Source: Patescibacteria group bacterium
Lineage (GTDB): Bacteria > Patescibacteriota > JABMPQ01 > JAHIRA01
Assembly: GCA_018818205.1 (NCBI GenBank)
Contig: JAHISJ010000013.1
Span: 16,661 to 80,660, forward strand
Reading direction: 5' to 3'
Length of the DNA stretch: 64,000 bases
Positions 17,747 through 42,455 of this stretch are shown here, in pieces. A model generated the notes under the pieces. It was not told the DNA's origin. It saw nothing but the letters and a program-made list of their open reading frames with translations, and made no database searches. Both the position numbers and the translations under genes were made by a program. The first letter of the stretch is position 1. Each line of letters starts with the position of its first letter.

Positions 17747-17771
17747 AGAAATTTATAATTTATCAAAAATT

Positions 17772-22229: not shown

Positions 22230-23231
<1,002 letters not shown>

Positions 23232-23276: not shown

Positions 23277-24221
23277 ATGAATGATCATAAGATTTTAGAG
23301 TATTCTGTTGTTGTTCCATTTTACAATGAGCAGGGGAATGTCACTCCTCTTTATTCTGATCTAAAAAAAGTATTTGAAGAAATAAGTGGAGAGTACGAAA
23401 TTATTTTTGTCAATGACGGTTCAATCGACAACACATTGCAGGAAATGAAGGAGCTTAAGCCTCTCAAGATAATCAATTTTAGGAAAAATTTTGGGCAAAC
23501 TGCTGCACTAGATGCGGGTTTCAAAGAAGCGAAAGGAAAGTATATTATTACCTTGGACGGTGACGGGCAAAATCCTCCTTCAGAAATTCCTATACTGATA
23601 TCAAAAATGGAGGAAGGTGGTCTTGATGTTGTCTGTGGGTGGCGGTATAAGCGCAAGGACACTACATTGAAACGAGTTTTTTCACGAGGAGCGTATTTTT
23701 TGAGAGGGTTTTTGGTTAAAGATCATGTGCATGATGCGGGGTGTACGCTTAGATTGTATAAAAAAGAGTGTTTTGATGATTTTGATTTATTCGGGGAGAT
23801 GCACAGGTTCATTCCTGCGGCATTGTATTGGAGAGGTTTTAGGGTAGGTGAAATAAAGGTGTCACACAAACCTCGTGTGCATGGTCTAAGCAAGTACAAT
23901 TGGACACGAGCGCTTAAAGGGTTTATTGACATGATTTCTATTTGGTTTTGGAGAAAGTTCTCTAATCGGCCCCTTCATTTATTTGGAGGCGCAGGAATAT
24001 TTTTTGTTCTTATTGGTGTACTGTTTTTTATTGTTCTTGGTTTGTTAAGACTTTTTCTTGGGTATAGTCTTTCTGACAAGATTTGGCCACTTGTTGCAAC
24101 GTTGCTTATTGTTGTTGGTGTCCAGCTTTTTGTATCAGGAATAATGACCGATATTCTAATTAAGGGCTATTATTCTAACGGAAAGACATCGTATAATATC
24201 AAAGACATTATTGTAAATTAG
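23277..24221 (+). CDS. GT2 polyprenol-phosphate glycosyltransferase (DPM1/GtrB/ArnC-like) with C-terminal TM helices
   Basis: VVVPFYNE...FVNDGSIDNT...TLDGDGQNPP; two C-terminal TM segments. Confidence 0.75.
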   Translation: MNDHKILEYSVVVPFYNEQGNVTPLYSDLKKVFEEISGEYEIIFVNDGSIDNTLQEMKELKPLKIINFRKNFGQTAALDAGFKEAKGKYIITLDGDGQNPPSEIPILISKMEEGGLDVVCGWRYKRKDTTLKRVFSRGAYFLRGFLVKDHVHDAGCTLRLYKKECFDDFDLFGEMHRFIPAALYWRGFRVGEIKVSHKPRVHGLSKYNWTRALKGFIDMISIWFWRKFSNRPLHLFGGAGIFFVLIGVLFFIVLGLLRLFLGYSLSDKIWPLVATLLIVVGVQLFVSGIMTDILIKGYYSNGKTSYNIKDIIVN

Positions 24222-24225
24222 AGGG

Positions 24226-25335
24226 ATGAGGATACTCGTACTCAACCATGAATTTCCCCCTGTCGGAGGCGGTGCGAGCCCGGTTAGTTTTGGTTTAGCT
24301 GAATACTATGCTAAAGCCGGTCATGAAGTATCTGTAGTTACTATGGCATTTTCAGATTTGCCTGAAAAACAGAAAGTAAATGAGAAACTTACTATTTTTA
24401 GGGTGACCCCAGGTAGGAAGCATAAGGAAAAATCTAAAATGAGTGAACACATAACATATATCCAAAGAGGGTATGCGATGTGTAAACATCTGCATCGGGA
24501 GAAACAATTTGATGTATGCCACACGCATTTTGCTTTACCAGGGGGAATCCTTGCCCTACGGTTAAAGAATAAGCTCGGATTACCCTATATTTTGTCAGTG
24601 CATGGTAGTGATGTTCCAGGTCATAATCCAGGCTTTAATACTATCCACACAATAATGAGTTCATTGACCAAGAGGGTTTTCAGCAATGCTCGTAACGTTA
24701 CTTATCCATCAAGAAGCTTGAAGGATATAGTGATAAAGCTATATCCTTCGTTGTCAAATAAAAGTGTCACTATTGCAAATGGATCAAAAGACTATTATCG
24801 GGAGGCTATCAAGGAAGAGAATATTGTTATTTTTGTGGGGAGACTGCAGAATATAAAAAGGGTTGATGTATTGATTGAGGCTTTTAAGAGAGCTAATAAT
24901 TCACATTGGAAACTCTATATTATTGGCGATGGTCCGGAAAAGGAGAATTTGAAGGCTAATTCAGAAGGCAAAGAAAATATCATTTTTACTGGGTGGATGA
25001 GCAATGAAAGTAATGAATATACTGAATTGCTTAACAAGGCTAAGATTTTTTGTTCACTTTCTTCGACTGAATCTCAGGGGATAGCCCTTGTGGAAGCAAT
25101 GAGTGCAGGCTGTGCACTGGTAGTGTCTAATATTGATGCGCATAGAGAGACAACAGACAAAAGCACAGCAGTGTTTATTAATGGCGAGAAAATTGATGAG
25201 GCGCGTAAAGCCATTCAGTGGTTAATAGATAATCCTAGTGAATGTCGAAAGAAGGGAAGTAATGCACGTCAAATGTATAAAGAAAGATTTATTTGGGATA
25301 CTATTTCACCTCGATATTTAGATCTGTTCACTTAG
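24226..25335 (+). CDS. glycosyltransferase family 4
   Basis: STESQGIALVEAMSAGCALV (EX7E). Confidence 0.8.
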   Translation: MRILVLNHEFPPVGGGASPVSFGLAEYYAKAGHEVSVVTMAFSDLPEKQKVNEKLTIFRVTPGRKHKEKSKMSEHITYIQRGYAMCKHLHREKQFDVCHTHFALPGGILALRLKNKLGLPYILSVHGSDVPGHNPGFNTIHTIMSSLTKRVFSNARNVTYPSRSLKDIVIKLYPSLSNKSVTIANGSKDYYREAIKEENIVIFVGRLQNIKRVDVLIEAFKRANNSHWKLYIIGDGPEKENLKANSEGKENIIFTGWMSNESNEYTELLNKAKIFCSLSSTESQGIALVEAMSAGCALVVSNIDAHRETTDKSTAVFINGEKIDEARKAIQWLIDNPSECRKKGSNARQMYKERFIWDTISPRYLDLFT

Positions 25336-25339
25336 TAAT

Positions 25340-26251
25340 ATGAGTATAAATAGCACAACTTATTCATATGCATTACTTATTTTGCATTGGAAGAATGTCG
25401 ATGATACCCTTGCATGCGTCGATTCGCTCTTAGGAAGTGTAAGTGACTCATGTATGCTGTATTTGCTTTGCAATGGTTCGTCTGAAGGAGATAATTCAGT
25501 AATTAAAAAAAAGTGTGCAAGCATTCCCTTCGTTACTATAATAAACTCTGAGTATAATCGTGGCTTCGCAGGCGGAAGCAATTATTTGATAAAGACAGCT
25601 AAAGAGAATGATCACGACTTTTACATTCTTATTAATAATGACACAATTCTTGACCGACAGTTTGTTCAAAAAGTTGATAGAGAATTAGTAGCCATAAATG
25701 ATGATAAGATAGGTATTTTTGTTCCCACAATTTATTATTATGACTCAGATTTAAGTAAGAAGAATATTTGGCGTGCAGGTGATTCAAAAAAGGTTCTTTT
25801 AGAAAGTAACAAAATTAAGAGACCTGTTGGCTGTATATATGGCATAAGTGAGAAACTTATAAACAAAATAGGGTATTTTGATGAGAATTTTTTTGCATAC
25901 GGTGAAGAGGTTGATTATAATTATAGAGCAAAAAAAGCAGGCTTTTCATTGTGTTATCTTCCAAAGGTCAATGCATGGCATAAAGTTGTTGAACATGCAG
26001 ATTCGGAGTTAAAGACGTATCTTAGTGTGCGGAATAACTATTATCTGTACAATAAAAGGAACTTCCTTGATAGATACCTCTATTTCACTTATTTTTTTAT
26101 TGTTAAATTACCGCGTAAATTTTTTTTGATATTATATAAAAACAAAAAAAATTTACCCGTATTTTTTAGGGCTAATAAAGATGGATTGGCCTGGATAAAA
26201 ACAGGGAAAAAGCCTCGGAGTGATTTTATAACTGAAACCGAACGGACATGA
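25340..26251 (+). CDS. glycosyltransferase family 2
   Basis: ALLILHWKNVDDTLACVDSL, GFAGGSNY, LINNDT; paralogue of 1800 and 50702. Confidence 0.75.
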   Translation: MSINSTTYSYALLILHWKNVDDTLACVDSLLGSVSDSCMLYLLCNGSSEGDNSVIKKKCASIPFVTIINSEYNRGFAGGSNYLIKTAKENDHDFYILINNDTILDRQFVQKVDRELVAINDDKIGIFVPTIYYYDSDLSKKNIWRAGDSKKVLLESNKIKRPVGCIYGISEKLINKIGYFDENFFAYGEEVDYNYRAKKAGFSLCYLPKVNAWHKVVEHADSELKTYLSVRNNYYLYNKRNFLDRYLYFTYFFIVKLPRKFFLILYKNKKNLPVFFRANKDGLAWIKTGKKPRSDFITETERT

Positions 26252-27354
26252 AAAAAGTATTGATTATTAATGATGGAAATTCAATTGGAGGTGGAGTGAT
26301 TGTTACAAATCGTATAGTAAATTATATTCGTGAACATTATAGCAGTGATGTTGATATTAAAGTTTTAAGCCCATTTGACGGTCTGGAAGATCTTCCTAAA
26401 GAACGCAAAATTTCTGTCCGCGTGTTCAATATCTTTGACGAATACTTGTTCTACCCAACGAGCTTTATTCGTCTTATTAAGTCAATAAGAGAAGTAGATA
26501 TTGTTCATTTTCATAATGTATGGACATTTTCTTCCCTTATTCCTTTATTTCTCTCATTTTTGCTTAGAAAAATAATAATTTCTACTCAGCATGCGATGCC
26601 TGGGGATCCCTGTAAAAAGGGGATTCAGAAGGTTATTATGGCAACGAGGCACTCAGTTATTATCCAGTGCATTGCTCTTATTCCAAAGACAGTGGTTTTT
26701 TTAACGAATGCTCAAAAGAATGAGTTTCTAAAGCGAACACTCTTTAAGTCTAGTCTTAGCAAAAAGAGTATTATTATTCCAAACTGTCTTAGTAAATCAT
26801 ATTTACAAAAAAAACAGCAAGTAAGCCAAAAGCGAATGAAGCTGCTTTATGTCGGTAGATTGAGCTACAGTAAAGGGTTTGATACAATGCTTGCATTGAT
26901 TACTGAGCTTGGTTTAATAGATTGCTGCTATACAATAGTTGGTAAGGTAAAAGAGGACGATTTACTTATGAGAATGAAGCGTTTGCAAGAAATTGGTTAT
27001 CCTGTTACCTATGTTGAAGTGGTTGAATCAAATGATATGGTTTGCTATTATGATAGCAATGACGTGCTTATAGTACCGTCATGTTCAGAGGTTTCTCCAC
27101 TTGTAGTGCTAGAAGCAAAAGCACGTGGGTTATCTATTGTTATTTCAGACATTCCTGGTATGAATGAATGTGTCGTTGAAGGAGAAAATGGATTTAGGTT
27201 TACGCTTTTAGATGCAAAGGAAGCAGCATGCAAAGTGCGTGCATTGCGTAATGACTCTGGACTAATGCATTATATCTCAGAAAATAATAATAAGAATGCT
27301 GAGGCACAAACATTAGACAAGATTGTACCTCAAGTTTTAGAATTGTATTCATAA
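26248..27354 (+). CDS. glycosyltransferase family 4
   Basis: PSCSEVSPLVVLEAKARGLSIV...ENGF. Confidence 0.7.
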   Translation: MKKVLIINDGNSIGGGVIVTNRIVNYIREHYSSDVDIKVLSPFDGLEDLPKERKISVRVFNIFDEYLFYPTSFIRLIKSIREVDIVHFHNVWTFSSLIPLFLSFLLRKIIISTQHAMPGDPCKKGIQKVIMATRHSVIIQCIALIPKTVVFLTNAQKNEFLKRTLFKSSLSKKSIIIPNCLSKSYLQKKQQVSQKRMKLLYVGRLSYSKGFDTMLALITELGLIDCCYTIVGKVKEDDLLMRMKRLQEIGYPVTYVEVVESNDMVCYYDSNDVLIVPSCSEVSPLVVLEAKARGLSIVISDIPGMNECVVEGENGFRFTLLDAKEAACKVRALRNDSGLMHYISENNNKNAEAQTLDKIVPQVLELYS

Positions 27355-28119
27355 ATGGTTATCCAGCCGTATCATAAGGATTTATTTTTAGAGCTTCTTA
27401 AGGCAGACTTTAAGGTTCGTTACCAAGGGTCGATTTTGGGTTTTGTCTGGGTATTGCTCAGACCCTTTCTCTTGTTTATGATTTTTTATATTATCTTCTC
27501 GTATATTTTTTCACGAGGGGATAGTCACTTTGCGATTCGATTAATACTAGGACTAATCATTTTTACGTATTTTTCTGAGGCGACAACTCATGGTCTTACC
27601 TCCCTGATAAATAAAGCTGATGTTATTCTAAAGGTGAATTTTCCAAGACAAATTGTTGTTATTTCCTCTATAGTAAATTCTTTACTTACACTCTTTTTTA
27701 GTTTTGTTATTTTTATTGCATTTTGGGTTTTTAATCCAACCTCAGTTTCCGCGCTTTGGCTTTTGTTTCCAGTGTATCTGCTTGTCCTCTCAATTCTTAT
27801 TACTGGACTTTCTTTTTTTCTAAGTGTTCTATCTGTTAAATTCAGAGATATGCAGATGATTTGGGAGCTTTTTATCCAGATCCTTTTTTATGGCAGTGCA
27901 ATTTTTTATCCAATTTCTATATTATCGCCAAAGTTGCAAGAGTATATGTATTGGAATCCTATTTTTGTTATAATTCAGCAATGCAGGGAAATTTTGATAG
28001 ACAACACTATGCCTGATTTAAAGTTTCTTTTTGTTATTTCGCTCGCAAGTGTTGCATTTTTTATTTTGGGATATGTTTATTTCAAACGTAATATTAAGCG
28101 AATAGCAGAATACTTCTAG
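27355..28119 (+). CDS. ABC-2 type polysaccharide export permease (Wzm/TagG-like)
   Basis: 6 TM helices; ABC-2 permease topology; immediately upstream of the ATPase. Confidence 0.8.
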   Translation: MVIQPYHKDLFLELLKADFKVRYQGSILGFVWVLLRPFLLFMIFYIIFSYIFSRGDSHFAIRLILGLIIFTYFSEATTHGLTSLINKADVILKVNFPRQIVVISSIVNSLLTLFFSFVIFIAFWVFNPTSVSALWLLFPVYLLVLSILITGLSFFLSVLSVKFRDMQMIWELFIQILFYGSAIFYPISILSPKLQEYMYWNPIFVIIQQCREILIDNTMPDLKFLFVISLASVAFFILGYVYFKRNIKRIAEYF

Positions 28120-28120
28120 T

Positions 28121-28852
28121 ATGAACGAAGCTATAATACAAGTTAAAAATATTTCTAAGGTTTTTATGATCCCTGAAGAAAACAGGAATACTTTACGGGA
28201 ACATTTTTGGAATTTTTTTCGTCCGATGAAACACAAAAAGTTTCAAGCGCTTGATAATGTTTCTTTTGAAGTGAACAGGGGTGAGTGGCTAGGTATAATA
28301 GGAAGGAACGGTTCAGGGAAGTCGACTCTACTTAAAATTTTAGCTGGGATTTATTTGCCGGATTCAGGAAGGTTTTGTAGAAATGGTTCCCTTGTTCCTT
28401 TCTTGGAGCTTGGTGTTGGTTTCAATTTTGAACTTTCAGCTCGTGAAAATATTTTCTTGAATGGAACAATTCTAGGAATGACTCGAAAAGAAATCAATGC
28501 TGTTTTTGACGCGATTGTAGAGTTTGCTGAGATTAAAGAATTTTTAGACTTGCCTCTTAAAAACTATTCTTCAGGAATGAAGGTGCGTCTTGCATTTGCA
28601 ATAGCTACAAAAGTTGATGCTGACATTTACCTTTTAGACGAGGTAATGGCTGTTGGCGATTACGTTTTTAAGGAGAAATGTACCAGTGTTTTTGAAGAAA
28701 TGAAGGAAAAGGGGAAAACAATTATTTTTGTAAGTCATAGTATGGATGACATTAAAAGGTACTGTGACAAAGCGCTTATAATTAAGAAGGGTGTGCTCGA
28801 TAAATTTGGAGATGCTGATACTATTACTTCCTTATATGAAGTACAAGAGTAG
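28121..28852 (+). CDS. polysaccharide ABC exporter ATP-binding protein (Wzt/TagH-like), short form without a C-terminal carbohydrate-binding domain
   Basis: Walker A GRNGSGKST, signature YSSGM, Walker B IYLLDE; only 243 aa. Confidence 0.85.
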   Translation: MNEAIIQVKNISKVFMIPEENRNTLREHFWNFFRPMKHKKFQALDNVSFEVNRGEWLGIIGRNGSGKSTLLKILAGIYLPDSGRFCRNGSLVPFLELGVGFNFELSARENIFLNGTILGMTRKEINAVFDAIVEFAEIKEFLDLPLKNYSSGMKVRLAFAIATKVDADIYLLDEVMAVGDYVFKEKCTSVFEEMKEKGKTIIFVSHSMDDIKRYCDKALIIKKGVLDKFGDADTITSLYEVQE

Positions 28853-28903
28853 TTAAGTTTTGGAATTGATATTTACTTTAATTACAAAGTTAGTGGTTTA
28901 TAG

Positions 28904-31900
28904 ATGAGAAAAGTGAAAACACCTCATTTCGACATGTATCTTTTACCAGGGTTTGAGAGCTATTATTGTGACGATTTTGAACCTCTTTCTGTTTCCATTT
29001 TTAATTCTATAATAAAAAATGGAAATGTTGTTGTTGATGTTGGAGCCCACTTTGGTTATTTTACTTTACTTGCTTCAAAAAAGACTGATCGAGTTTATGC
29101 TATTGAGCCAGTAAAGAAAAATAATGAGGTTTTAAGGCAGAATATTGTACTTAATAACTCTCAAGCAATCGTATTTGATTGTGCAATTTCTGATCGTTTA
29201 GGAAAGAAAAAAATAAATGTAGCTACTTCTTCTGACTGCTCAGGTTTTTATGTGCATCCATTCTCTAAGCCGATTGATCAAGAATTGGTTTCAGTAAAGA
29301 CCCTTGACGATCTTTTCCATAATAAACGTATAGACTTGCTTAAAGTTGATACTGAAGGGAATGAATATAAGGTTCTTATGGGAATGGAAAGTGTATTGCT
29401 GCAAAATTCAAATCTTAAGCTGTTATTTGAGTTTAACCCCAAATGTTTAATATGTGCTGGAGACAAGCCTAGTGTTTTTTTAGAAACACTTAAACAACAT
29501 AATTATTCAATCTTTTTTATAGATGACAAAAGTCAAAAGATTGAAAATTATACGCAGTCTCCTGCTAGATGGTCTGAGATGATAGATGAAGATGCGTGTG
29601 TTAATTTGCTTTGCGTTCGCACAAGTGATCCAGATTACAACAATGTACTTTGCACAATTGATACTATAAAAAGAAAAATAGAAACTGCAAAAACTAGGGC
29701 TCGTAGTATTAGGTTTACTATTGGCATTACTGTATACAATAGAAAAGAGTACTTGGAAGAATGCGTTGAAAGTGCATTATCTCAGACGTATAAACCAGAT
29801 GAAATTATTATTGTTGATGACTTTTCACAAGATAAGGGCGTGATTGATATTCTTGAGAAATATAGGAATCGAGAAAATATCAAACTTATTTATAATAAAG
29901 AGAATTTAGGCATTGCTGGATCTTGGAATACAGTGCTAGATAATATGAGTAGTGAATGGTTGGTCATGCTAGATGGTGATGATGTTCTTGAAAAAAATGC
30001 TCTTGAAGAGATAACAAAGTATATTGCGCTTCACAATGAAATCGAATTTATTTCAACCTTGCATACAATTATTAATAGTAAAGGAGAAACACTCGGGGTT
30101 TTTGATAGGCCCCTAGGTAAAGATCCAAAGAAGTTGATTTTAGAGGGAATGTATTTGTCACATCTTAAAGTTTTTAATAAAATGTGCTTTGAAAAAGTGG
30201 GGAGCTTCAGAGGCAAGATAGCAGTTGACTATGACATGGTAGTAAGGGTTCTGGAAATGTGCAAGATGGGCATGCTTCATAAGTGTTTGTACAAATATCG
30301 TTTTCATGAAGATTCGTGTACCAAGAAAAGAGCTAAAGAACAATATGAAAAAGGATGCAAGATTCTATTGGGCACTTACAAAAGGCAAATGATCGATGAA
30401 AATCTCTATATAGACTCTATCATTGAGCGAGGGGCCCTGGCCCATTCCACAAATCTCGGATTACAGAGTAAAATTACACAGAATATTTACCGTATAAAGG
30501 AATTAACTAGCAAGATTGTACAGGAAACAGCTGAAAAAGAAAGAATAGATGTACTTTATAACAAGGAAGCAAAAAGTCATTCTACAGATCTAAATTCATT
30601 GGAATGGAGACTTGGGTGGTGTATTTGCAATCCGTTGAAAGCAGCAAAAAAAATACCTGTATTCGTTGATTATGTGTATGCTAAACGTAAAAAAGACATT
30701 ATCTGGGCAAAAAATAATCCAATTAGGTGTTGTAAAAAATATTTGAAAGTGCTTGTTTCTAAGGGAAAAACATGTGAAGAAGATTTAGAAAGAAGTATCT
30801 ATGATTCACTTACGTATACCGAAATAAATATTGATAAGTGGTCAGAAGATACGCCGCTTATCAGTGTGATTATCCCTTGCTATAATTATGGAAATTATAT
30901 TAGCGAAGCTTTAAATTCTATTTTTGCACAAACACTTCAAGATTTTGAGGTAATTATTATTGATGATGGGTCAACAGATCCTGGAACAGAGAAGGAGTTA
31001 AAAACGATAAAGCATCCTAAGGTCCAGGTTATTTTTCAAGAGAATTCCGGAGTCTCTAATGCTAGAAACAAGGGAATTAGTAAAGCAAAAGGAAAATATA
31101 TTTGTTGTCTAGATCCGGACGACATTCTTGATCCGACCTATTTTGAAAAATGTTTATTGGTTCTGGAAAGAGATGCACAATTAGGCCTTGCATATTCATG
31201 GGTAAAGGAAATTGGGGCTAGGGATATTTTATGGAAGACTACTGATTTGGATATTGACACATTACTTTCATCAAATCATGTACCAATAAGTGCGATTTTC
31301 AGAAAAGAAATAGCTGATAGCGTGTTCTTTGATCCAGATATTCGTCATGAAGACTGGGATTTTTGGCTTTCCGTTGTGGGAAAAGGGTGGCGTGGAAAAG
31401 TAATTCCCGAAGTTCTTATGTATAGCAAGAGACATGGAAACAATAAATCGTTACAAGATGAGCAATTTTATAAAGAAACACTATTAGCACTGAAAGAAAA
31501 GCATAAAAACCTTTTGAAGAAAGATTTCAGAGAAAAAGTGAAAGAGGAGTACATAAAAAAAATAGCGTTAAATCCTTTTACGAATTTAAATAGATCCGTC
31601 TATCAAGAAAAACACAAGAAAAGAGTGTTTGTTGTTGTTCCATTTTTAATATGTGGAGGAGCGGAGACACTTCTTTATAATTTTGCATCAAAGCTTAAGA
31701 ATGAAGTCGATTTTACTTTTATTTCCGTGATTAAGTCAAAAAATGAATGGGAAGACAGGTTTAAGGGAATTAGCTCTCGAGTGTATCATTTACCCAAACT
31801 TTTTGAAAGTAAAAATGTTTGTGATGATTTTTTACTCAATTATATTCAGACAAGAAATATTGATGTATTGCATTTCTTTCACTGTGGTTATTTTTATGAC

Positions 31901-32725
31901 ATACTTCCGATAATTGGCAGAAAATTTTCTTCATTAAAGATAGTTGTAACCCTGTTTAATTCATATGTTGACCACTTTGTTGATGCTACCAAGTATCATG
32001 AGAATGTAAGTATGTATACCTCAGATAATCAAGCTACCATTTCTACGTTTAAGAAACTCGGGGTTTCTGAAGAAAAGTTGCAGCTTTTGCCAAACGCAAT
32101 TGATCCTTTTGAAACGTATAATCCTGCAACTATCGATAGAGAAAATGAAAGAAAAAAGATTGGAGTAAAGGAAAATGAAATAGCCGTCTTTTTTATTGGA
32201 CGCTTATCAGAAGAGAAAAATCCGGATGTATTTTTGAAGATTGCAAGGCAGGTAGTGGCAAAAAAGAAGAATGTAAAATTTTTCGTTGTGGGTGATGGTA
32301 ACATGAAGAAAGAAATCATGCGGATGATTAAGCGGATTGGTAGTGCTAACATCACCTATCTAGGATATAGAAGTGATATCCCAAATTTGCTTACCGCAGC
32401 GGATATTTTTGTTCTACCTTCTAGGATTGAAGGATTTCCCTCATCTATGCTCGAGGCTATGGCAACAGAAAACTGTGTTATTGCTTCAGACGTTGGTGCT
32501 GTAGGAGATGTGATAGAGGACGGAAAGACAGGATTTGTGGTAAATAAAAAGGATTACAGGCGTTTTGTTGAGAGAATCCTTCAACTGGTTGATTCAAGAG
32601 AGACAATTGTTAACATGGGGAGAAAGGCACGAGAGGTTGTTGTACAAAACTATACTACTGAAAAATTAGCCAACAATTATAGAAAACTATACTCAAATGA
32701 AGAAAGTTCTCGTTTTGGGGAGTAG
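28904..32725 (+). CDS. four-domain glycan synthase: FkbM-family methyltransferase + GT2 + GT2 + GT4
   Basis: VVDVGAHFGYFT...LLKVDTEGNE (FkbM); TIGITVYNRKEYLEECVES...IIVDD (GT2); VIIPCYNYGNYISEALNS...IIIDDGS (GT2); RLSEEKNP...PSRIEGFPSSMLEAMA (GT4). Confidence 0.8.
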   Translation: MRKVKTPHFDMYLLPGFESYYCDDFEPLSVSIFNSIIKNGNVVVDVGAHFGYFTLLASKKTDRVYAIEPVKKNNEVLRQNIVLNNSQAIVFDCAISDRLGKKKINVATSSDCSGFYVHPFSKPIDQELVSVKTLDDLFHNKRIDLLKVDTEGNEYKVLMGMESVLLQNSNLKLLFEFNPKCLICAGDKPSVFLETLKQHNYSIFFIDDKSQKIENYTQSPARWSEMIDEDACVNLLCVRTSDPDYNNVLCTIDTIKRKIETAKTRARSIRFTIGITVYNRKEYLEECVESALSQTYKPDEIIIVDDFSQDKGVIDILEKYRNRENIKLIYNKENLGIAGSWNTVLDNMSSEWLVMLDGDDVLEKNALEEITKYIALHNEIEFISTLHTIINSKGETLGVFDRPLGKDPKKLILEGMYLSHLKVFNKMCFEKVGSFRGKIAVDYDMVVRVLEMCKMGMLHKCLYKYRFHEDSCTKKRAKEQYEKGCKILLGTYKRQMIDENLYIDSIIERGALAHSTNLGLQSKITQNIYRIKELTSKIVQETAEKERIDVLYNKEAKSHSTDLNSLEWRLGWCICNPLKAAKKIPVFVDYVYAKRKKDIIWAKNNPIRCCKKYLKVLVSKGKTCEEDLERSIYDSLTYTEINIDKWSEDTPLISVIIPCYNYGNYISEALNSIFAQTLQDFEVIIIDDGSTDPGTEKELKTIKHPKVQVIFQENSGVSNARNKGISKAKGKYICCLDPDDILDPTYFEKCLLVLERDAQLGLAYSWVKEIGARDILWKTTDLDIDTLLSSNHVPISAIFRKEIADSVFFDPDIRHEDWDFWLSVVGKGWRGKVIPEVLMYSKRHGNNKSLQDEQFYKETLLALKEKHKNLLKKDFREKVKEEYIKKIALNPFTNLNRSVYQEKHKKRVFVVVPFLICGGAETLLYNFASKLKNEVDFTFISVIKSKNEWEDRFKGISSRVYHLPKLFESKNVCDDFLLNYIQTRNIDVLHFFHCGYFYDILPIIGRKFSSLKIVVTLFNSYVDHFVDATKYHENVSMYTSDNQATISTFKKLGVSEEKLQLLPNAIDPFETYNPATIDRENERKKIGVKENEIAVFFIGRLSEEKNPDVFLKIARQVVAKKKNVKFFVVGDGNMKKEIMRMIKRIGSANITYLGYRSDIPNLLTAADIFVLPSRIEGFPSSMLEAMATENCVIASDVGAVGDVIEDGKTGFVVNKKDYRRFVERILQLVDSRETIVNMGRKAREVVVQNYTTEKLANNYRKLYSNEESSRFGE

Positions 32726-33584
32726 AGGATTCATTGGAAGAGCGGTCACCAGTTACTTGCAAAATAAAGAAGTGTTTGTGGTAACTGCAGATAGATCTGA
32801 CACCACGTGTGATTTTACTGTAGATTTAAAGAATAAAGATGATGTTCTTGATCTTGTAAGAAAAACGTTACCAAGTTATATTATTAATTGCGCGGGAATT
32901 TTAACTGCTGAGCATTGTTTTCTAAACCCTGTTTTTAGCATGAATGTTCTTAGTGCTCTAGAGGTATTTAAGAGTCAAATAACCTGTAAACTTATCGTCT
33001 TAGGATCTGCGTCAGAGTATGGAATAGTTGGTAAGCTTCCGGTATCTGAAGATGCTCCGTTGATGCCCCAGAACGCATATGACATGAGTAAGGTTATTGA
33101 AACATTGAGTGCACTAAAATATGCAGAGCTCCATGGTCTTAATGTCGTAATTGCACGGCTTTTTAATCCAATTGGTGCTTTAATGCACGAGCGAACACTC
33201 ATTCCAAGTCTTATTAGACAGGTGAAAGAATTAGCACGTAGCAGTCAAAAAAAGCTAGAGGTCAATAGGCTTGATTCTAAAAGGGATTTTTTGGCGGTTT
33301 CTGATGTAGCAGAAGCTATTGCCACAATTGCCCTATCGGAAGAGAATAAAGAGAAGGTATATAACATTGGCTCTGGGGAAGAGGCAAGCGTGGAGCAACT
33401 GATTCAGTCGTTTCTTGAAACTGTTAATTTTTCTCGGAATATAGAAATCGTTGAGACTAGTGAACAACCCGAGCCTCAATATGCATCTAGGGCGGATATT
33501 AGTAGAATTTCAACAGAGTTTGGCTGGAAACCTAAGAATAATTTAAGGGAAGTTGTTAACGAGCTGGTTAATGAGCAAGAATGA
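32697..33584 (+). CDS. NAD(P)-dependent sugar-nucleotide 4-reductase, Rmd-like (GDP-4-keto-6-deoxy-D-mannose reductase candidate)
   Basis: VLVLGSRGFIGRAV, YDMSK, RLFNPIG...RDFLAVSDVAEAI; architecture parallels Rmd; gmd is in the same window. Confidence 0.55.
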   Translation: MKKVLVLGSRGFIGRAVTSYLQNKEVFVVTADRSDTTCDFTVDLKNKDDVLDLVRKTLPSYIINCAGILTAEHCFLNPVFSMNVLSALEVFKSQITCKLIVLGSASEYGIVGKLPVSEDAPLMPQNAYDMSKVIETLSALKYAELHGLNVVIARLFNPIGALMHERTLIPSLIRQVKELARSSQKKLEVNRLDSKRDFLAVSDVAEAIATIALSEENKEKVYNIGSGEEASVEQLIQSFLETVNFSRNIEIVETSEQPEPQYASRADISRISTEFGWKPKNNLREVVNELVNEQE

Positions 33585-34342
33585 AGAATAAAATAAAGAT
33601 AATTATTGTAGGAGCAGGGGAGGCTGGTTCTCTTATTTCAAAGAATATTTATGATGATAAAAACTCTCCTTTTGAACTTGTAGGCTTTGTTGATGATGAT
33701 TTGAAGAAGAAAGAAAAAAAGATTAATGGGAAAAAGGTTTTGGGGGAGCTTAAAAATCTGAAAGAATTAATTGATGAGTTTTCAATAAAAGAATTGCTTA
33801 TAGCTATGCCCTCCGGACGCGGTGATGTCATTCGGAAGGTTCTGGATTGCACTAAAGATAGGCGGGTTCGGTATAAAATAATTCCCAGAAGTACCAAGGT
33901 GTTGATACAGGACTTTGGCGAGAGCTATCTTAAACATATCCGAGATGTATCGGTTGAAGATTTGCTTGGAGGTGAGATTGTAAAATCTGAACTTAAGGTA
34001 ATTGGAAAATATCTCAAGAATAAATGCATATTGATAACCGGTGCGGCAGGGTCAATTGGCTCTGAGCTTGCACGGCAAGTTGCCGCTTTTAGCAATGCTA
34101 AAAAGGTTATTTTGTTTGATTGGTCAGAAAACGGTATGTTCTTGTTGCAAAATGATATTCAGGGGAGCTATCCGAACCATCCCGTTGAGTTTGTTATTGG
34201 TGATATTAAAGATAAACAAAGATTGAATTATATTTTTGACACTTTTTCTCCTGATCTTGTGTTTCATGCTGCAGTGTATAAGCACGTACCTTTAATCTCT
34301 CCAGGGGTTCTATCCCCCGCCGCTTGCGGCGTGATATACTAG
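33581..34342 (+). pseudogene. 5' fragment of a CapD/PglF/WbpM-like NDP-sugar 4,6-dehydratase, truncated at the IS200 left end
   Basis: ILITGAAGSIGSELARQV...FHAAVYKHVPL, then the reading frame runs into the IS left end and stops; about half the expected length. Confidence 0.6.
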
Positions 34343-34825
34343 AGCTATGAGCACATATGTACATAAAAGTCATAATGTAAGCGTGTTACTGTATCACCTG
34401 GTATTTCCTGCAAAGTATCGTCGTGTGGTTATCGATGCACAGGTAGATGAAATTATCAAAGAAACATGCTTGGAAATTGCACAGAGGTACGAAGTACATT
34501 TCCTTGAAATAGGTACAGACAAGAACCACATACATCTGTTGGTACAAAGTGTTCCCACATACACGGTGACCAAACTTGTTACGATGATAAAAAATATTAC
34601 AGCCAGACACGTTTTCAACCAATGTCCCGATGTGAAAAAACAACTTTGGGGTGGAGAATTCTGGTCAGACGGATACTTTGCAAGTACGGTAAGTAAACAC
34701 GGAAATGAAGATATGATATCAAATTATGTAAAAAAGCAGAGAGAAGAGTACACAAAGCTACACAATAATCATCAACTTCGGTTATTCTAGCGGATACCCC
34801 GTCCGCTTGCGGCGGGGTAGTTTAT
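34300..34825 (+). mobile_element. IS200/IS605-family insertion sequence (tnpA only) with subterminal hairpins at both ends
   Basis: Left-end hairpin ccgccgcttgcggcg (about 34317-34331). Right-end hairpin ccccgtccgcttgcggcgggg (34797-34817). Y1 transposase gene between them. Confidence 0.75.
34347..34790 (+). CDS. tnpA: IS200/IS605 family transposase TnpA (HUH Y1)
   Basis: HUH motif HIHLLV, catalytic Tyr in SDGYFASTV; 147 aa. Confidence 0.85.
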   Translation: MSTYVHKSHNVSVLLYHLVFPAKYRRVVIDAQVDEIIKETCLEIAQRYEVHFLEIGTDKNHIHLLVQSVPTYTVTKLVTMIKNITARHVFNQCPDVKKQLWGGEFWSDGYFASTVSKHGNEDMISNYVKKQREEYTKLHNNHQLRLF

Positions 34826-34882
34826 TCTACATATAGGCCAGAATTTAACTATCTGACAATATCCAAATGGAATGAACGTGAA

Positions 34883-35467
34883 TTGGAAAATCATGGCTAT
34901 AGCTCAACTATTGCTTCTCCTGGAATAAACCAGGAAGTTTATAAATGTTATGATGACGTAGGAAGAAGAGATGATTTACTTCTTTCTGTTGGCTGGTCAC
35001 ATTACTTAAAGAATTTAGATTATCTTTTAGATGGGTGGAGAGGAATGAAAACCAAGCCGAAATTAGAGCTTTTTAGAATTGAGCCTCGTCTAGGTAAGAA
35101 GAATGGTGTAAAGTATTATTACAAACCAAATGATATTCAAGTGGCACGCTTGTATAACAGGGCAACCGTTTTTGCTCAAACTTCGCTTCATGAAGGGTTT
35201 TGTTTACCGATTCTTGAGGCTATGGCATGTGGATGTCCAGTTGTTTGTACGGATGCAGATGGCAATTTGGATTTTTGTGTTGATGGTAAGAATTGTTTAA
35301 TAGTTGCAAAAGATGATGTTAATGCTTTAACTGGTGCTCTTGAATCTTTGCTTAGAGATGAAGGCTTGAGAGAGAGACTTTCTCGAGAAGGGAAGAGAAC
35401 GGCTGAGAAATATGTGTGGGATATGCAAAATACTTTACTTGAAGCGTTTATGTATGATCTCAAATAG
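34883..35467 (+). pseudogene. 3' fragment of a GT4 glycosyltransferase (C-terminal half only), fused in frame to the IS right end
   Basis: [19 protein letters not shown] (EX7E) present but the N-terminal Rossmann half is absent. The open frame extends upstream into the IS right-end hairpin. Confidence 0.6.
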
Positions 35468-40055: not shown

Positions 40056-41936
40056 TTACTTTGCTTGAAGTGAGTATGCAATGCTAATTTCCTTATCACT
40101 TAATGCTCTGCTAATGTAAGCAATCTTTGCATAGCGAGCTTTCATGTGATAATCGGTATAGACTCCTGTTAGAGGGTTCCAAGAAATGAACATGTACGAG
40201 GAAGAGGTAGCTGCACTACATGTAATATTGGTGGATGTTCCATCAAGTTTGCCATCAATGTAGAACTTTACGGTCGATGCTGCCTTGTTGTATACATATG
40301 TAAGGTGCACATATTTGTTGATTACAAGCGAGGTTTTTGGGCTTCTATCCATACCTGTCCCACAGTACCCAACATATTTGTTTGCCCAATGACTAAGGCT
40401 TAGTGATGTTCCAGGTGATCTAATAATAAATGACGCACCATAGCTAGGAGTTGTTGTTATTTGTGCATAAACCATGACAGTGAAGGATTCAACAGAAGTT
40501 GTCTGAAGTGTTCCTACATTTGTGATAACAGCATATCCTTTGATAGAGGTATCAAAATATGTTTTGGCCCCAAGGGTCACTACACGGCCACCGTTTTTGA
40601 TTCCCGCGTGCCTTCCTTTACCGGAGACATCTGGAATTTTGATGTTGTCGTTTTTTTGTGGTACTAACAAGAATTCGAGGGCAGAGCAATTAGATTCATC
40701 TGTTTGACCATCGCAGTTATCGTCGATGTTGTTGCTACAGACTTCAACACCGTAACTACCGCCGCAACATCTACCATGCAGGCATAGCTGTCCCAACGTA
40801 CACTGTGTGCCGCATTTTCCACAGTTATTCTTGTCTACTTGGAGGTTAAACCCATTATCAACAACTCCATCACAATCATTATCCTTCCCATCACAGATCT
40901 CTTTTGAGGAGGGCATAGGTGTACAGGTCTGAGCTACGCCACCAACACATTTCTGAACCGTATTGGAGCACTCTCCAACACCACATGCTAACGTTCCAAG
41001 ATTCTCATCAATTTGGCCGTTGCAGTTGTTGTCTTTGCCATCGCAGACTTCCGTAGAAGGCTGTTTTGGCACACAACTTTGCGGTTTTCCGCTTGAGCAG
41101 TTGTTAACTTCAACAAAGCACTCTCCAACACCACAAGAACTTTTCCCTAAATCTTCATCAATCGCACCATCACAGTCGTTATCAAGACCGTCACAAGTCT
41201 CAGGCTTTGGTTCAACGAGGCCTATACAAGGTCCCCATGATCCATCAGATAAGCACGTTTGCCTTCCTCTCTTACAAAGTCCTTTAAGCGGTACTGTTCC
41301 ACAATCTAGGGTATTTCCTGCTGTACAACAAGGGATACCATCATCAATCTGACCGTTGCAGTCGTTGTCAAGTCTGTCGCAGGTCTCCTTAGCAGGTTGA
41401 TTCTTTTGAATGCAAATTAGTTTACCGGATGCACAAGTATATGAACCTTCAGTACAAATTCCCGGTTTTCCTGTTACACAAGGCTTACCAAATAATTTCT
41501 TGTATTTATCACAGGGATCAATTTTTTCAGATTCAGGGAGAATCTCTGGAGAAACCTTTTCTTCAGATGATGTAGATTCTTCGTGAACAAAACGTTCTTC
41601 TTGAATGGTGCGTTCAGGTTCCCGAGGGATTTCCTCAGGAAGTTCTCCTGCATCATTTAACTCAGCAGTGTATTCATCAATACGCTGTTCATTAATATCT
41701 TCACCAAATTCATGATCAATTAACTGTTCTTTTGTGTCAACAAGAATTTTTTCTTTGTCACCACCTGTTTCAATTTTATCTTTGGGGATACAATATTCAC
41801 CACTTCGGCAGTAATGGTTTGCTGGGCAATCACTATCAACGTCACATTCGAGCATACCTGAGGGGTTTGAACAATTCAGTGTAAAAATAGCAGAAAAAAG
41901 AAAAATTACATACAAAAACTTCGGCATTTTTGTCAT
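40056..41936 (-). CDS. secreted Cys/Asp-rich repeat protein (MopE-type putative metal-binding repeats) with acidic linker and C-terminal LamG/concanavalin-like domain
   Basis: Start set at ATG 41936 with AGGAGG SD. Signal peptide MTKMPKFLYVIFLFSAIFTLNCS. At least 5 repeats ending CDGxDNDCDGxxD. C-terminal jelly-roll-like region. Confidence 0.7.
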   Translation of the reverse strand: MTKMPKFLYVIFLFSAIFTLNCSNPSGMLECDVDSDCPANHYCRSGEYCIPKDKIETGGDKEKILVDTKEQLIDHEFGEDINEQRIDEYTAELNDAGELPEEIPREPERTIQEERFVHEESTSSEEKVSPEILPESEKIDPCDKYKKLFGKPCVTGKPGICTEGSYTCASGKLICIQKNQPAKETCDRLDNDCNGQIDDGIPCCTAGNTLDCGTVPLKGLCKRGRQTCLSDGSWGPCIGLVEPKPETCDGLDNDCDGAIDEDLGKSSCGVGECFVEVNNCSSGKPQSCVPKQPSTEVCDGKDNNCNGQIDENLGTLACGVGECSNTVQKCVGGVAQTCTPMPSSKEICDGKDNDCDGVVDNGFNLQVDKNNCGKCGTQCTLGQLCLHGRCCGGSYGVEVCSNNIDDNCDGQTDESNCSALEFLLVPQKNDNIKIPDVSGKGRHAGIKNGGRVVTLGAKTYFDTSIKGYAVITNVGTLQTTSVESFTVMVYAQITTTPSYGASFIIRSPGTSLSLSHWANKYVGYCGTGMDRSPKTSLVINKYVHLTYVYNKAASTVKFYIDGKLDGTSTNITCSAATSSSYMFISWNPLTGVYTDYHMKARYAKIAYISRALSDKEISIAYSLQAK

Positions 41937-41981
41937 AATCTCCTCCTCTTGAGGTGTAAAAGGGTTCAAAGTTTGCGCTTT

Positions 41982-42010
41982 ATTATGGAACGTTTTGCCG
42001 AAAAAAGCAA
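41982..42010 (-). promoter_or_regulatory. candidate promoter TTGCTT-17-CATAAT for the 40056-41936 gene
   Basis: Reverse-complement inspection; about 45 nt upstream of the start codon. Confidence 0.35.
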
Positions 42011-42047
42011 GTCCTTTTGGTAATGTGCACACACATATGGCGGTTTT

Positions 42048-42076
42048 TTGACAGGGTCCAGGAAGTTGAATACAAT
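42048..42076 (+). promoter_or_regulatory. sigma70-consensus promoter TTGACA-17-TACAAT, about 380 nt upstream of the 42456 gene
   Basis: ttgaca 42048-42053; tacaat 42071-42076. Confidence 0.45.
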
Positions 42077-42455
42077 CTCTACTAATGTACAAGAAGAGCA
42101 CTATCGATGGATAGCACTCATTATGGTGGAAAAGATATCCATAGCATTGATTGCAGGGATTTCTCCTTTCCCTGATAGAACCATTAGGTATTGGCTTCCT
42201 CGGTTGGCATTGTAAACCTTGTAAGTATGTCTAGAAGACCAAAATCATATTCTTGTGAAACACTAATATGTGTCCAAAATTATCAAGGAGAAGAGAATAA
42301 GATGAAAAACTGCTAATTTTTTTTATCAAATAGATTGTTTTACATGATTATTTCTAAGGCACTGGAGTTTAAGCCCATAACGTTATCTATTTGAACGGAT
42401 GCGTATATCTGCTATTCTTGATTTATTAGTAGTAAAAATTTTGTCAGTGAAAAAA

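What the first reader, a model, noticed from the sequence alone, without database searches (positions are those of the whole stretch)
27355..32725. Polymerase/terminator fusion (FkbM-GT2-GT2-GT4, 1273 aa) next to a CBD-less Wzm/Wzt exporter
In ABC-transporter-dependent O-polysaccharide systems such as E. coli O9a, the serotype-defining polymerase (WbdA) and the chain-terminating methyltransferase (WbdD) are separate proteins, and Wzt carries a C-terminal carbohydrate-binding domain that reads the terminal methyl.

Here an FkbM-family methyltransferase domain is fused N-terminally to three GT domains in one polypeptide. The Wzt is the short type (243 aa) with no binding module.

This suggests a self-contained polymerise-and-cap enzyme whose product is exported without terminal-residue recognition. 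It is an unusual architecture worth structural and biochemical follow-up.
Basis: partly seen in the sequence, partly recalled or inferred. Interest (0 to 1): 0.65.

Follow-up and report, generated by a model that had tools for sequence, protein, structure and literature searches.

The report
Methyltransferase-glycosyltransferase fusion beside short Wzm/Wzt exporter
A candidate-phylum (Patescibacteria) bacterium encodes one 1273-residue enzyme that joins a sugar-methylating module to three sugar-adding modules, next to a polysaccharide exporter that lacks the usual cap-reading domain; the layout is real, but it is a recurring variant of a surface-glycan assembly line that is already known.

Summary
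The region holds wzm (27355-28119), a 243-aa Wzt with a nucleotide-binding domain only (28121-28852), and a 1273-aa ORF (28904-32725). The ORF reads FkbM methyltransferase, GT2, GT2, GT4, with all catalytic motifs intact. The genes gmd and rmd flank the operon, so GDP-D-rhamnose is a likely sugar donor. The source is a Patescibacteria MAG.

Polymerase-terminator fusions are already described: WsaE of Geobacillus (methyltransferase plus two rhamnosyltransferases, gene order wzm-wzt-wsaE), Klebsiella O12 WbbB and Klebsiella O7 ORF6.

The N-terminal FkbM module belongs to a large uncharacterised subfamily, with 125 cluster representatives at E<=1e-30. About two thirds of its 150 closest relatives are fused to glycosyltransferases. 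Two relatives share the same four-domain order. All nine informative neighbourhoods place the module beside wzm/wzt. Five have a Wzt carrying the Wzt_C binding domain and four, this one included, have a short Wzt.

No extended coiled-coil ruler is predicted.

The best reading is a WsaE-like polymerase that also methylates the chain end, with export that does not depend on cap recognition. Methylation of internal residues is not excluded. I rate it a new variant of a known kind, of moderate interest.

The parts
22254..23231 (+). gmd, GDP-mannose 4,6-dehydratase (first step to GDP-D-rhamnose)
   Evidence: NCBIfam TIGR01472 scores 427.7 bits against a cut-off of 415.
23277..24221 (+). GT2 of the polyprenyl-phosphate glycosyltransferase type (PgfS/ArnC-like). 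It probably makes a lipid-linked sugar for decoration outside the cytoplasm.
   Evidence: NCBIfam PgfS E 7e-43 and ArnC-type PRK10714 E 2.4e-42, both below the equivalog cut-offs.
24226..25335 (+). Stand-alone GT4 (candidate primer/adaptor glycosyltransferase)
   Evidence: Pfam Glyco_transf_4 and Glycos_transf_1; NCBIfam GT4 hits.
25340..26251 (+). Stand-alone GT2 with a weak rhamnosyltransferase-like match
   Evidence: TIGR01556 E 1.4e-8, below cut-off; weak Pfam GT2 hit.
26248..27354 (+). Stand-alone GT4. Its stop codon abuts the wzm start codon.
   Evidence: Pfam Glycos_transf_1; coordinates.
27355..28119 (+). wzm, ABC-2 type permease
   Evidence: PF01061 scores 52.4 bits. NCBIfam Wzm/RfbD gives E 3.6e-17, below the equivalog cut-off.
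28121..28852 (+). wzt, nucleotide-binding subunit, 243 aa, with no carbohydrate-binding domain
   Evidence: PF00005 only. The protein is 50-54% identical to the NBDs of CBD-bearing Wzt proteins from related loci. No Wzt_C-like sequence occurs anywhere in the window.
28904..29635 (+). aa 1-244 of the 1273-aa protein: the FkbM-type SAM methyltransferase module
   Evidence: PF05050 and TIGR01444 both score above their cut-offs. Motifs VDVGAHFG (aa 44-51) and KVDTEGNE (aa 147-154) are present. All 19 invariant residues of the subfamily are kept. The AF2 model has pLDDT mostly above 90 here.
29636..29713 (+). aa 245-270: a single amphipathic helix joining the methyltransferase to GT2a
   Evidence: AF2 predicts helix 245-268 at pLDDT 94-97. 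It is the only segment of the protein with a heptad-like pattern.
29714..30403 (+). aa 271-500: GT2 module a (GT-A fold)
   Evidence: Pfam GT2. Motifs IIVDDFS (aa 302-308) and DGDD (aa 357-360) are present. The AF2 model is confident. Foldseek hits include K4 chondroitin polymerase, WrtF and TarP.
30404..30853 (+). aa 501-650: lineage-specific, mostly helical linker of unknown role
   Evidence: No homologue among the hits and no Pfam family. AF2 pLDDT is 28-62.
30854..31453 (+). aa 651-850: GT2 module b
   Evidence: Pfam GT2 from aa 654. Motifs IIIDDGS (aa 684-690) and DPDD (aa 737-740) are present. The best PDB sequence hit is chondroitin synthase K4CP, E 5.4e-28. The AF2 model is confident.
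31454..31618 (+). aa 851-905: short helical linker
   Evidence: AF2 predicts helices at low confidence. There is no Pfam hit above threshold.
31619..32725 (+). aa 906-1273 plus the stop codon: GT4 module (GT-B fold)
   Evidence: Pfam Glyco_transf_4 at aa 918-1068 and Glycos_transf_1 at aa 1078-1244. The EX7E motif EGFPSSMLE lies at aa 1176-1184. PDB hits include TarM, PglA and PimB.
32697..33584 (+). [quoted passage not shown] Its start overlaps the 3' end of the big ORF by 29 nt.
   Evidence: The best solved-structure hits are 2pk3 (E 8e-25) and 6x3b (E 7e-22), both Rmd enzymes. Coordinates.

Best explanation
The 1273-aa protein is a multi-module enzyme of an ABC-transporter-dependent surface-glycan pathway in a Patescibacteria bacterium. 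It is of the same kind as Geobacillus WsaE and Klebsiella WbbB / O7-ORF6.

Inferred mechanism:
1. A lipid-linked primer is made by a phosphoglycosyltransferase that is not in the window.
2. The three stand-alone GTs (24226-27354) extend this primer.
3. The GT2a, GT2b and GT4 modules then polymerise a repeat on the cytoplasmic face. GDP-D-rhamnose, made by Gmd and Rmd, is the likely donor for at least one step.
4. The N-terminal FkbM/RfbT-like module uses SAM to O-methylate the non-reducing end.
5. Only a 24-residue helix separates the methyltransferase from the polymerase, so there is no molecular ruler. Capping would then compete kinetically with elongation.
6. Wzm/Wzt exports the chain. Because Wzt lacks a carbohydrate-binding domain, export is not gated by recognition of the cap.

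Shown here: the domain identities, the intact catalytic motifs, the operon layout, the conserved synteny and the absence of a CBD.

Inferred: polymerase activity, the sugar donors, the terminal (rather than internal) site of methylation, and the export logic.
For: Domains and motifs.

GT2-GT2 pair: its best match among solved structures is the bifunctional K4 chondroitin polymerase.

Operon packing: the GT4 stop codon abuts the wzm start, wzm and wzt are 1 nt apart, and the big ORF overlaps rmd by 29 nt.

Sugar supply: gmd and rmd are identified.

Conserved cassette: the order wzm, wzt, FkbM-GT recurs in the loci of P0005, P0011, P0048, P0053 and L010, a Dehalococcoidia MAG. P0003 and P0050 have the C-terminus of a Wzt directly upstream.

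Link to cap reading: five of nine subfamily loci pair the module with a Wzt carrying Wzt_C, the domain known to read terminal caps (PMC11231755). This argues that the subfamily makes a terminal modification.

Specificity control: only about 10 of 79 generic FkbM loci have any Wzt nearby.

Precedents:
- WsaE has an N-terminal methyltransferase plus two GT domains, lies right after wzm-wzt, and methylates independently of chain length in vitro.
- The CBM-less Klebsiella O1/O2a transporter exports chains with or without the terminal pyruvate.
- V. cholerae Inaba strains lack the WbeT/RfbT terminal methyl but still display O1 antigen (abstracts).
- The query has a sub-threshold RfbT match (23.1 bits against a cut-off of 27.9). 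Its relatives P0003 and P0008 pass that threshold.
Against: - There is no biochemical or glycan-structure data.
- According to PMC11231755, every experimentally characterised terminated O-polysaccharide has a CBM on Wzt and a coiled-coil protein. Both are missing here, which weakens the 'terminator' label.
- A SAM synthetase gene lies in the island. A relative's locus carries metK, AdoHcyase and an adenosine-kinase-like gene. This suggests a higher methyl demand than one cap per chain.
- The initiating phosphoglycosyltransferase is not in the window.
- aa 500-650 and the N-terminal half of the GT4 module are modelled with low confidence, so a short coiled coil there cannot be excluded.
Confidence: 0.55

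Rival explanations
1. The layout is the same, but the FkbM module methylates an internal sugar of every repeat unit, or many of them. The methyl group is then a decoration and not a chain terminator. Chain length would be set, as in Klebsiella O2a, by coupling of polymerisation to the CBD-less exporter.
For: - Wzt has no CBD.
- There is no coiled-coil ruler, and the methyltransferase is tethered directly to GT2a.
- metK lies in the island, and SAM-cycle genes lie next to the relative P0049. This fits stoichiometric methylation.
- The O2a precedent shows obligatory coupling with a CBM-less transporter.
Against: - The same subfamily sits beside CBD-bearing Wzt proteins in 5 of 9 loci. Such Wzt proteins read terminal residues in the systems studied so far.
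- The nearest characterised relatives by family, RfbT/WbeT, act on the terminal sugar. So does WsaE, the nearest by architecture.
- Many of these loci carry additional class-I methyltransferases that could account for internal methylation and the SAM demand.
Confidence: 0.3
2. The three GT modules are not a polymerase. Together with the stand-alone GTs they assemble a short, defined oligosaccharide, for example for protein or lipid glycosylation. The methyltransferase finishes this oligosaccharide before ABC export.
For: - Domain content alone cannot distinguish processive or repeating action from single additions.
- A Wzy_C-type candidate oligosaccharyltransferase is in the window (312-1790).
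- Patescibacteria have small genomes and no LPS.
Against: - Multi-GT proteins placed directly after wzm-wzt are polymerases in every characterised case cited (WsaE, WbbB, O7-ORF6, WbdA).
- The GT2-GT2 pair most resembles a bifunctional polymerase.
Confidence: 0.1
3. The ORF is an artefact. Either two or more genes were joined by an assembly chimera or frameshift error, or it is a decaying pseudogene.
For: - The source is a metagenome assembly (MEGAHIT-style contig name).
- No other protein has exactly this sequence arrangement without inserts.
- An IS200-like element has disrupted genes 1.6 kb downstream.
Against: - The reading frame is uninterrupted for 3822 nt, with all catalytic motifs intact.
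- GC content is even across the ORF, at 0.32-0.37.
- No repeat of 31 nt or more exists in 27-34 kb that could seed a mis-join.
- The identical protein is on record on 3 contigs and from several sources: ncbi, jgi, Logan and ENA.
- P0003 and P0005 are collinear with it.
- AF2 models the FkbM-to-GT2a junction as one confident helix.
Confidence: 0.05

Closest known systems
WsaE of Geobacillus stearothermophilus NRS 2004/3a (S-layer glycan pathway)
   Same: - It has an N-terminal O-methyltransferase domain followed by two or more glycosyltransferase domains in one soluble polypeptide.
- The gene lies directly after wzm-wzt.
- The polymer is a deoxyhexose (rhamnose) glycan.
- A Wzy_C-type transferase and rml genes are in the neighbourhood.
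- Methylation is not ruled by chain length in vitro, and no ruler has been described (PMC2943079).
   Different: - WsaE has two GT domains and uses dTDP-L-rhamnose. This protein has three (GT2, GT2, GT4) and sits between gmd and rmd, which make GDP-D-rhamnose.
- The authors predicted that the WsaE-system Wzt binds the methylated end. Here Wzt has no binding domain.
Klebsiella pneumoniae O12 WbbB and O7 ORF6 (single-chain polymerase-terminators)
   Same: The terminating enzyme and two polymerase GT modules are in one protein, encoded next to wzm/wzt. O7 ORF6 has an N-terminal methyltransferase and two C-terminal GT2 modules (PMC11231755).
   Different: - Both Klebsiella proteins have an extended coiled-coil ruler between terminator and polymerase, and both systems have a CBM on Wzt. 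Neither feature is found here.
- O7 uses a methyltransferase-kinase pair that makes methyl-phosphate. This protein has an FkbM-type methyltransferase only.
E. coli O8/O9a WbdA, WbdD and Wzt with a CBD
   Same: An ABC-transporter-dependent pathway with a multi-module polymerase and SAM-dependent capping of the non-reducing end.
   Different: - The terminator (WbdD) is a separate coiled-coil protein that recruits WbdA.
- Export strictly needs the cap, which is read by the Wzt CBD.
- WbdD's methyltransferase is not annotated as FkbM-type (stated from my own knowledge; not tested here).
Klebsiella pneumoniae O1/O2a Wzm-Wzt (CBM-less exporter)
   Same: - A short Wzt without a CBM.
- Export is not dependent on a terminal residue.
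- In O1 a terminal pyruvate exists, but chains are exported with or without it.
   Different: - The polymerase WbbM carries no methyltransferase.
- The window Wzt scores only 181 bits against the galactan Wzt equivalog, whose cut-off is 400. It resembles that exporter in design but is not an orthologue.
Vibrio cholerae O1 RfbT/WbeT
   Same: A methyltransferase whose Pfam family (PF05575) is matched above its cut-off by relatives of this module. It methylates the terminal perosamine of an O antigen. Loss of the methyl group (Inaba serotype) does not abolish O-antigen display.
   Different: - RfbT is a stand-alone 286-aa protein that is not fused to GTs.
- The query's match to PF05575 is below threshold (23.1 bits against 27.9).
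Pseudomonas CPA D-rhamnan loci (P. aeruginosa, P. syringae TET operon)
   Same: - The genes gmd, rmd, wzm and wzt occur together with multi-domain GT4 polymerase(s) and O-methyltransferase(s).
[quoted passage not shown]
   Different: - These are Gram-negative LPS systems.
- The Wzt has a C-terminal binding domain.
- The methyltransferases are described as WbdD-like SAM methyltransferases, not FkbM-type.

Membership tests
FkbM-family SAM methyltransferase (Pfam PF05050 / NCBIfam TIGR01444) | Profile score above the curated cut-off | tested here: met
   PF05050 scores 67.5 bits against a cut-off of 22.7. TIGR01444 scores 91 bits against 37.7.
FkbM-family SAM methyltransferase (Pfam PF05050 / NCBIfam TIGR01444) | Intact SAM-binding and family motifs | tested here: met
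   VDVGAHFG at aa 44-51, E68-P69 and KVDTEGNE at aa 147-154 are present. All 19 invariant columns of a 27-sequence subfamily alignment are retained.
GT2 glycosyltransferase (two modules) | Pfam score above cut-off and a DXD metal/nucleotide motif in each module | tested here: met
   PF00535 scores 208.9 bits over 2 stretches. DD at aa 305-306 with DGDD at aa 357-360, and DD at aa 687-688 with DPDD at aa 737-740.
GT4 glycosyltransferase | Pfam GT-B halves and the EX7E motif | tested here: met
   PF13439 at aa 918-1068 and PF00534 at aa 1078-1244, 140.1 bits. EGFPSSMLE at aa 1176-1184.
Wzm/Wzt ABC-transporter-dependent glycan pathway | Adjacent ABC-2 permease and ABC ATPase genes inside a glycosyltransferase cluster | tested here: met
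   PF01061 and PF00005. The genes are 1 nt apart and flanked by GT genes.
Cap-gated Wzt (E. coli O8/O9a, Klebsiella O12/O4/O7 type) | C-terminal carbohydrate-binding domain (Wzt_C, PF14524) on Wzt | tested here: not met
   Wzt is 243 aa with no PF14524 hit at E<=10. No Wzt_C-like sequence occurs in any frame of the window. Only 51 nt separate wzt from the next gene.
Single-chain polymerase-terminator (WbbB / O7-ORF6 type) | Terminating enzyme and polymerase GT modules in one polypeptide | tested here: met
   Met at the level of domains only. Enzyme activities were not tested.
Single-chain polymerase-terminator (WbbB / O7-ORF6 type) | Extended coiled-coil molecular ruler between the terminator and the polymerase | tested here: not met
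   The methyltransferase and GT2a are joined by one 24-residue helix at pLDDT above 90. A crude heptad scan finds only aa 242-275. The longest other helix, about aa 518-557, has pLDDT around 50 and lies between GT2a and GT2b, not after the methyltransferase.
Single-chain polymerase-terminator (WbbB / O7-ORF6 type) | A non-reducing terminal residue or modification on the mature glycan that stops elongation | not testable with these tools
   This needs the glycan structure and enzymology.
WsaE-like trifunctional methyl-rhamnosyltransferase | N-terminal methyltransferase plus GT domains, encoded directly after wzm-wzt | tested here: met
   Gene order. The description of WsaE is in PMC2943079.
WsaE-like trifunctional methyl-rhamnosyltransferase | Sequence homology to WsaE itself | not tested
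Klebsiella O2a-type galactan exporter (NCBIfam NF050108/NF050109) | Equivalog score above cut-off | tested here: not met
   Wzt scores 181.5 bits against 400, and Wzm scores 62.8 bits against 380. The design is similar (short Wzt), but these are not orthologues.
V. cholerae RfbT (PF05575) | Profile score above the gathering threshold | tested here: not met
   The query scores 23.1 bits against 27.9. Of its relatives, P0003 (34.3 bits), P0008 (37.7 bits) and P0005 (28.6 bits) pass the cut-off; P0011 (27.5 bits) falls just short.
GDP-D-rhamnose pathway (Gmd + Rmd) | Both enzymes present in the locus | tested here: met
   Gmd is above the equivalog cut-off. The Rmd assignment rests on the best solved-structure hits 2pk3 and 6x3b. 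Stereochemistry (rhamnose versus 6-deoxytalose) is not determinable from sequence.

The most novel reading that the evidence does not exclude
The FkbM-GT proteins encoded after wzm-wzt form a widespread, so far uncharacterised class of 'rulerless' polymerase-terminators. In this class the methyltransferase is tethered directly to the polymerase, so chain length would be set by kinetic competition between capping and extension.

The cap-reading domain of Wzt has been lost or gained repeatedly within the class. In the CBD-less members, such as this Patescibacteria locus, capping and export are uncoupled. That regime lies between the two textbook models (E. coli O9a and Klebsiella O2a).

In an episymbiotic candidate-phylum bacterium the product could be a methyl-capped D-rhamnan on an S-layer, on pili or on the cell wall.
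Probability: 0.3. Interest if true: 0.55.

Novelty: new variant of a known kind. Interest (0 to 1): 0.35.

Why it matters
ABC-transporter-dependent glycan assembly is currently explained by two models:
- cap, ruler and cap-reading Wzt (E. coli O8/O9a; Klebsiella O12, O4 and O7);
- no cap, with export coupled to polymerisation (Klebsiella O2a).

This locus and at least three relatives combine a terminator-type methyltransferase with an exporter that cannot read caps, and they have no ruler. Sister loci keep the cap-reading domain. This natural with/without series offers a simple test of two questions: is a methyl cap alone enough to control chain length, and how easily can the export checkpoint be dispensed with?

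The locus also documents a large (at least 60 kb) and elaborate glycan island in a Patescibacteria genome, a group whose surface chemistry is essentially unknown.

The finding is not a new principle. Fused polymerase-terminators and CBM-less exporters are each already known.

Tried and rejected
1. The word-indexed protein search with the N-terminal 270 aa and with the subfamily alignment returned only short stand-alone FkbM proteins. These searches were of no use for surveying fusions. The exhaustive HMMER search was used instead.

Only L010 is a true subfamily member. I reused the remaining loci as a negative control for Wzt association.

3. The Foldseek search of the N-terminal model was dominated by the GT2 domain and gave no information on the methyltransferase fold.

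4. The idea that the presence of a CBD goes with a coiled-coil after the methyltransferase was rejected. P0003 has a short heptad-like stretch, but P0048 and P0053, which are also paired with a CBD-bearing Wzt, have no room for a coiled coil between FkbM and GT4.

5. The idea that the CBD sits elsewhere in the window, or inside the big protein as in O7-ORF6, was rejected.

6. Repeat-mediated mis-assembly between the two GT2 modules was rejected. The longest shared DNA match is 22 nt at 86% identity.

7. My heptad scan is a crude home-made score, not COILS or DeepCoil. I use it only together with the AF2 secondary structure.

8. No paper in the searchable library links an FkbM-type domain to an ABC-transporter O-antigen terminator. 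No paper describes Wzm/Wzt systems in Patescibacteria.

Full report
**Observation**

- 27355-28119 encodes a 254-aa ABC-2 permease (Wzm).
- 28121-28852 encodes a 243-aa ABC ATPase (Wzt).
- 28904-32725 encodes a 1273-aa protein.

Pfam places four domains in the large protein:
- an FkbM methyltransferase domain at aa 45-176 (67.5 bits, cut-off 22.7);
- two GT2 domains starting near aa 271 and aa 654 (208.9 bits in total);
- a GT4 domain at aa 918-1244 (140.1 bits).

NCBIfam fkbM_fam also scores above its cut-off. The Wzt contains only the nucleotide-binding domain. It has no Wzt_C hit even at E<=10. An HMM that I built from five Wzt_C domains of related loci finds nothing in any frame of the 64-kb window.

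**Source and surroundings**

The identical protein is on record as 'FkbM family methyltransferase [Patescibacteria group bacterium]', on an 82.9-kb ENA contig and two further contigs.

The whole window is a glycan-biosynthesis island. The finding sits in a tightly packed, same-strand block. In order, the block holds:
- gmd (22254);
- a PgfS/ArnC-like polyprenyl-phosphate GT2;
- a GT4, a GT2 and a second GT4;
- wzm and wzt;
- the 1273-aa gene;
- an Rmd-like reductase (32697). Its best solved-structure matches are the GDP-6-deoxy-D-lyxo-4-hexulose reductases 2pk3 and 6x3b.

Gmd plus Rmd point to GDP-D-rhamnose, or an epimer of it, as a building block. No initiating phosphoglycosyltransferase family appears in the window.

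**Anatomy of the big protein**

All catalytic signatures are intact:
- SAM motif VDVGAHFG (aa 44-51) and KVDTEGNE (aa 147-154);
- DD with DGDD in GT2a, and DD with DPDD in GT2b;
- EX7E (aa 1176-1184) in GT4.

AlphaFold2 models were built with alignments of the hits. They show:
- a confident 240-residue methyltransferase module;
- one confident 24-residue helix (aa 245-268);
- a confident GT2a (aa 271-500);
- a lineage-specific helical linker of low confidence (aa 500-650), with no homologue and no Pfam family;
- a confident GT2b;
- a short helical linker;
- a GT4 whose C-terminal half is confident.

Neither the models nor a crude heptad scan show an extended coiled coil of the WbdD/WbbB kind. 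Among solved structures, the GT2-GT2 pair is most similar to the bifunctional K4 chondroitin polymerase.

**Is the ORF a chimera?**

Read coverage could not be examined, but several observations argue against a chimera:
- The reading frame is uninterrupted.
- GC content is even across the ORF.
- No repeat of 31 nt or more exists in 27-34 kb that could seed a mis-join.
- The same protein is recorded from several sources.
- The FkbM-to-GT2a junction is modelled with confidence.
- Two relatives are collinear with it. P0003 reads FkbM-GT2-GT2-GT4 plus a C-terminal class-I methyltransferase. P0005 reads FkbM, class-I methyltransferase, GT2-GT2-GT4.

**The family**

I ran an exhaustive HMMER search with aa 1-270 against 1.84 billion cluster representatives. 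It gave 125 hits at E<=1e-30. Among the best 150, about 98 carry recognisable GT domains downstream of the module. The dominant form is FkbM-GT4 of about 700-740 aa, with 79 representatives. The exact FkbM-GT2-GT2-GT4 order is rare: the query, P0003 and P0005 only. The query keeps all 19 residues that are invariant in the subfamily.

**Genomic context of relatives**

Every informative neighbourhood places the module beside wzm/wzt.

The Wzt carries a Wzt_C domain in five loci:
- P0003;
- P0048;
- P0050;
- P0053;
- P0054, a stand-alone Parcubacteria homologue.

The Wzt is short and lacks the CBD in four loci:
- this window;
- P0005;
- P0011;
- L010, a Dehalococcoidia MAG.

The window's Wzt is 50-54% identical to the NBDs of CBD-bearing Wzt proteins and 47% identical to the other short ones. 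The two types therefore do not form separate lineages, and the CBD has been lost or gained more than once. As a control, only about 10 of 79 loci holding generic FkbM genes have any Wzt nearby.

**Mechanism**

The recurrent pairing with cap-reading Wzt proteins argues that this FkbM subfamily modifies the non-reducing end of ABC-exported glycans. Two characterised enzymes support the same reading. The family neighbour RfbT/WbeT methylates the terminal perosamine of V. cholerae O1. WsaE has an N-terminal methyltransferase that caps the Geobacillus S-layer rhamnan.

I therefore read the protein as a three-module polymerase with a built-in capping methyltransferase. There is no ruler, so capping would compete kinetically with elongation. 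There is no CBD, so export cannot be gated by cap recognition.

Precedents exist for export that ignores a terminal group. The CBM-less Klebsiella O1/O2a transporter exports chains with or without the terminal pyruvate. V. cholerae Inaba strains display unmethylated O antigen.

The main rival is that the methyl group is an internal, per-repeat decoration. Three observations favour it: the missing CBD, the missing ruler, and SAM-supply genes in this island (metK) and next to a relative. I give the cap model about 0.55 and the decoration model about 0.3.

**Comparison with what is known**

But fused polymerase-terminators are established in several systems:
- WsaE: methyltransferase plus two rhamnosyltransferases, with gene order wzm-wzt-wsaE;
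- Klebsiella O12 WbbB;
- Klebsiella O7 ORF6: methyltransferase-kinase, coiled coil, then two GT2 modules;
- fused GT/O-methyltransferase genes in some P. syringae CPA loci.

This locus differs in three ways: the methyltransferase is FkbM-type, there is no coiled coil, and Wzt lacks a CBD. According to PMC11231755, all terminated O-polysaccharide systems studied so far have both a coiled-coil protein and a CBM. The combination seen here is therefore a variant that has not been characterised experimentally. It recurs in at least four unrelated metagenomic lineages.

**Verdict**

This is a real feature, correctly described. It is best classed as a new variant of a known kind of system. The claim of an unusual architecture is overstated. 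The open question of interest is what the cap does when the exporter cannot read it, and the CBD-bearing sister loci make that question testable. Interest is moderate, at 0.35.

Noticed in passing
window 33581-35467: An IS200-like Y1 transposase gene (34347-34790, 124.7 bits) lies between two gene fragments. The first is a CapD-like gene that stops after 93 of the 293 Polysacc_synt_2 profile positions (33581-34342). The second is a fragment holding only the C-terminal half of a GT4 (34883-35467). This looks like an insertion/deletion scar directly downstream of rmd.
   Followed up: partly
window 17724-18932; L092:418-3957: A SAM synthetase gene (metK) lies inside the glycan island. The locus of the FkbM-GT4 relative P0049 has metK, AdoHcyase and a PfkB-family kinase next to it. 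SAM-supply genes therefore seem to travel with these loci.
   Followed up: partly
window 312-1790: A Wzy_C (O-antigen-ligase-like) membrane protein in a Patescibacteria genome, which should have no LPS. It is a candidate O-oligosaccharyltransferase, comparable to WsaB of the Geobacillus S-layer pathway.
   Followed up: no
window 59902-61380 (-) and from about 62.6 kb (+); 52781-56142: Wzx-type flippase genes (Polysacc_synt) and several roughly 500-aa proteins without Pfam hits. Together they suggest a second, Wzx/Wzy-type glycan pathway in the same island.
   Followed up: no
window 15991-16797: A KilA-N domain gene (87.4 bits) sits in a low-GC patch (0.33) in the middle of the sugar-nucleotide genes. 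It may be a remnant of mobile DNA.
   Followed up: no
L090:4072-5994: The Wzt next to P0048 is 640 aa long. Ahead of the NBD and the Wzt_C domain it carries an extra N-terminal extension of about 230 aa with no Pfam match.
   Followed up: partly
window 5806-8928 (-), 40056-42101 (-), 42399-45845 (+): Three large putative surface or secreted proteins are interspersed in the island: a 1040-aa FG-GAP repeat protein, a Laminin_G_3 protein, and a 1148-aa DUF6311 protein.
   Followed up: no
window 32697-32725: The rmd start codon lies 29 nt inside the 3' end of the 1273-aa ORF. The upstream GT4, wzm and wzt genes abut one another or are 1 nt apart. This packing is consistent with translational coupling along the operon.
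   Followed up: no
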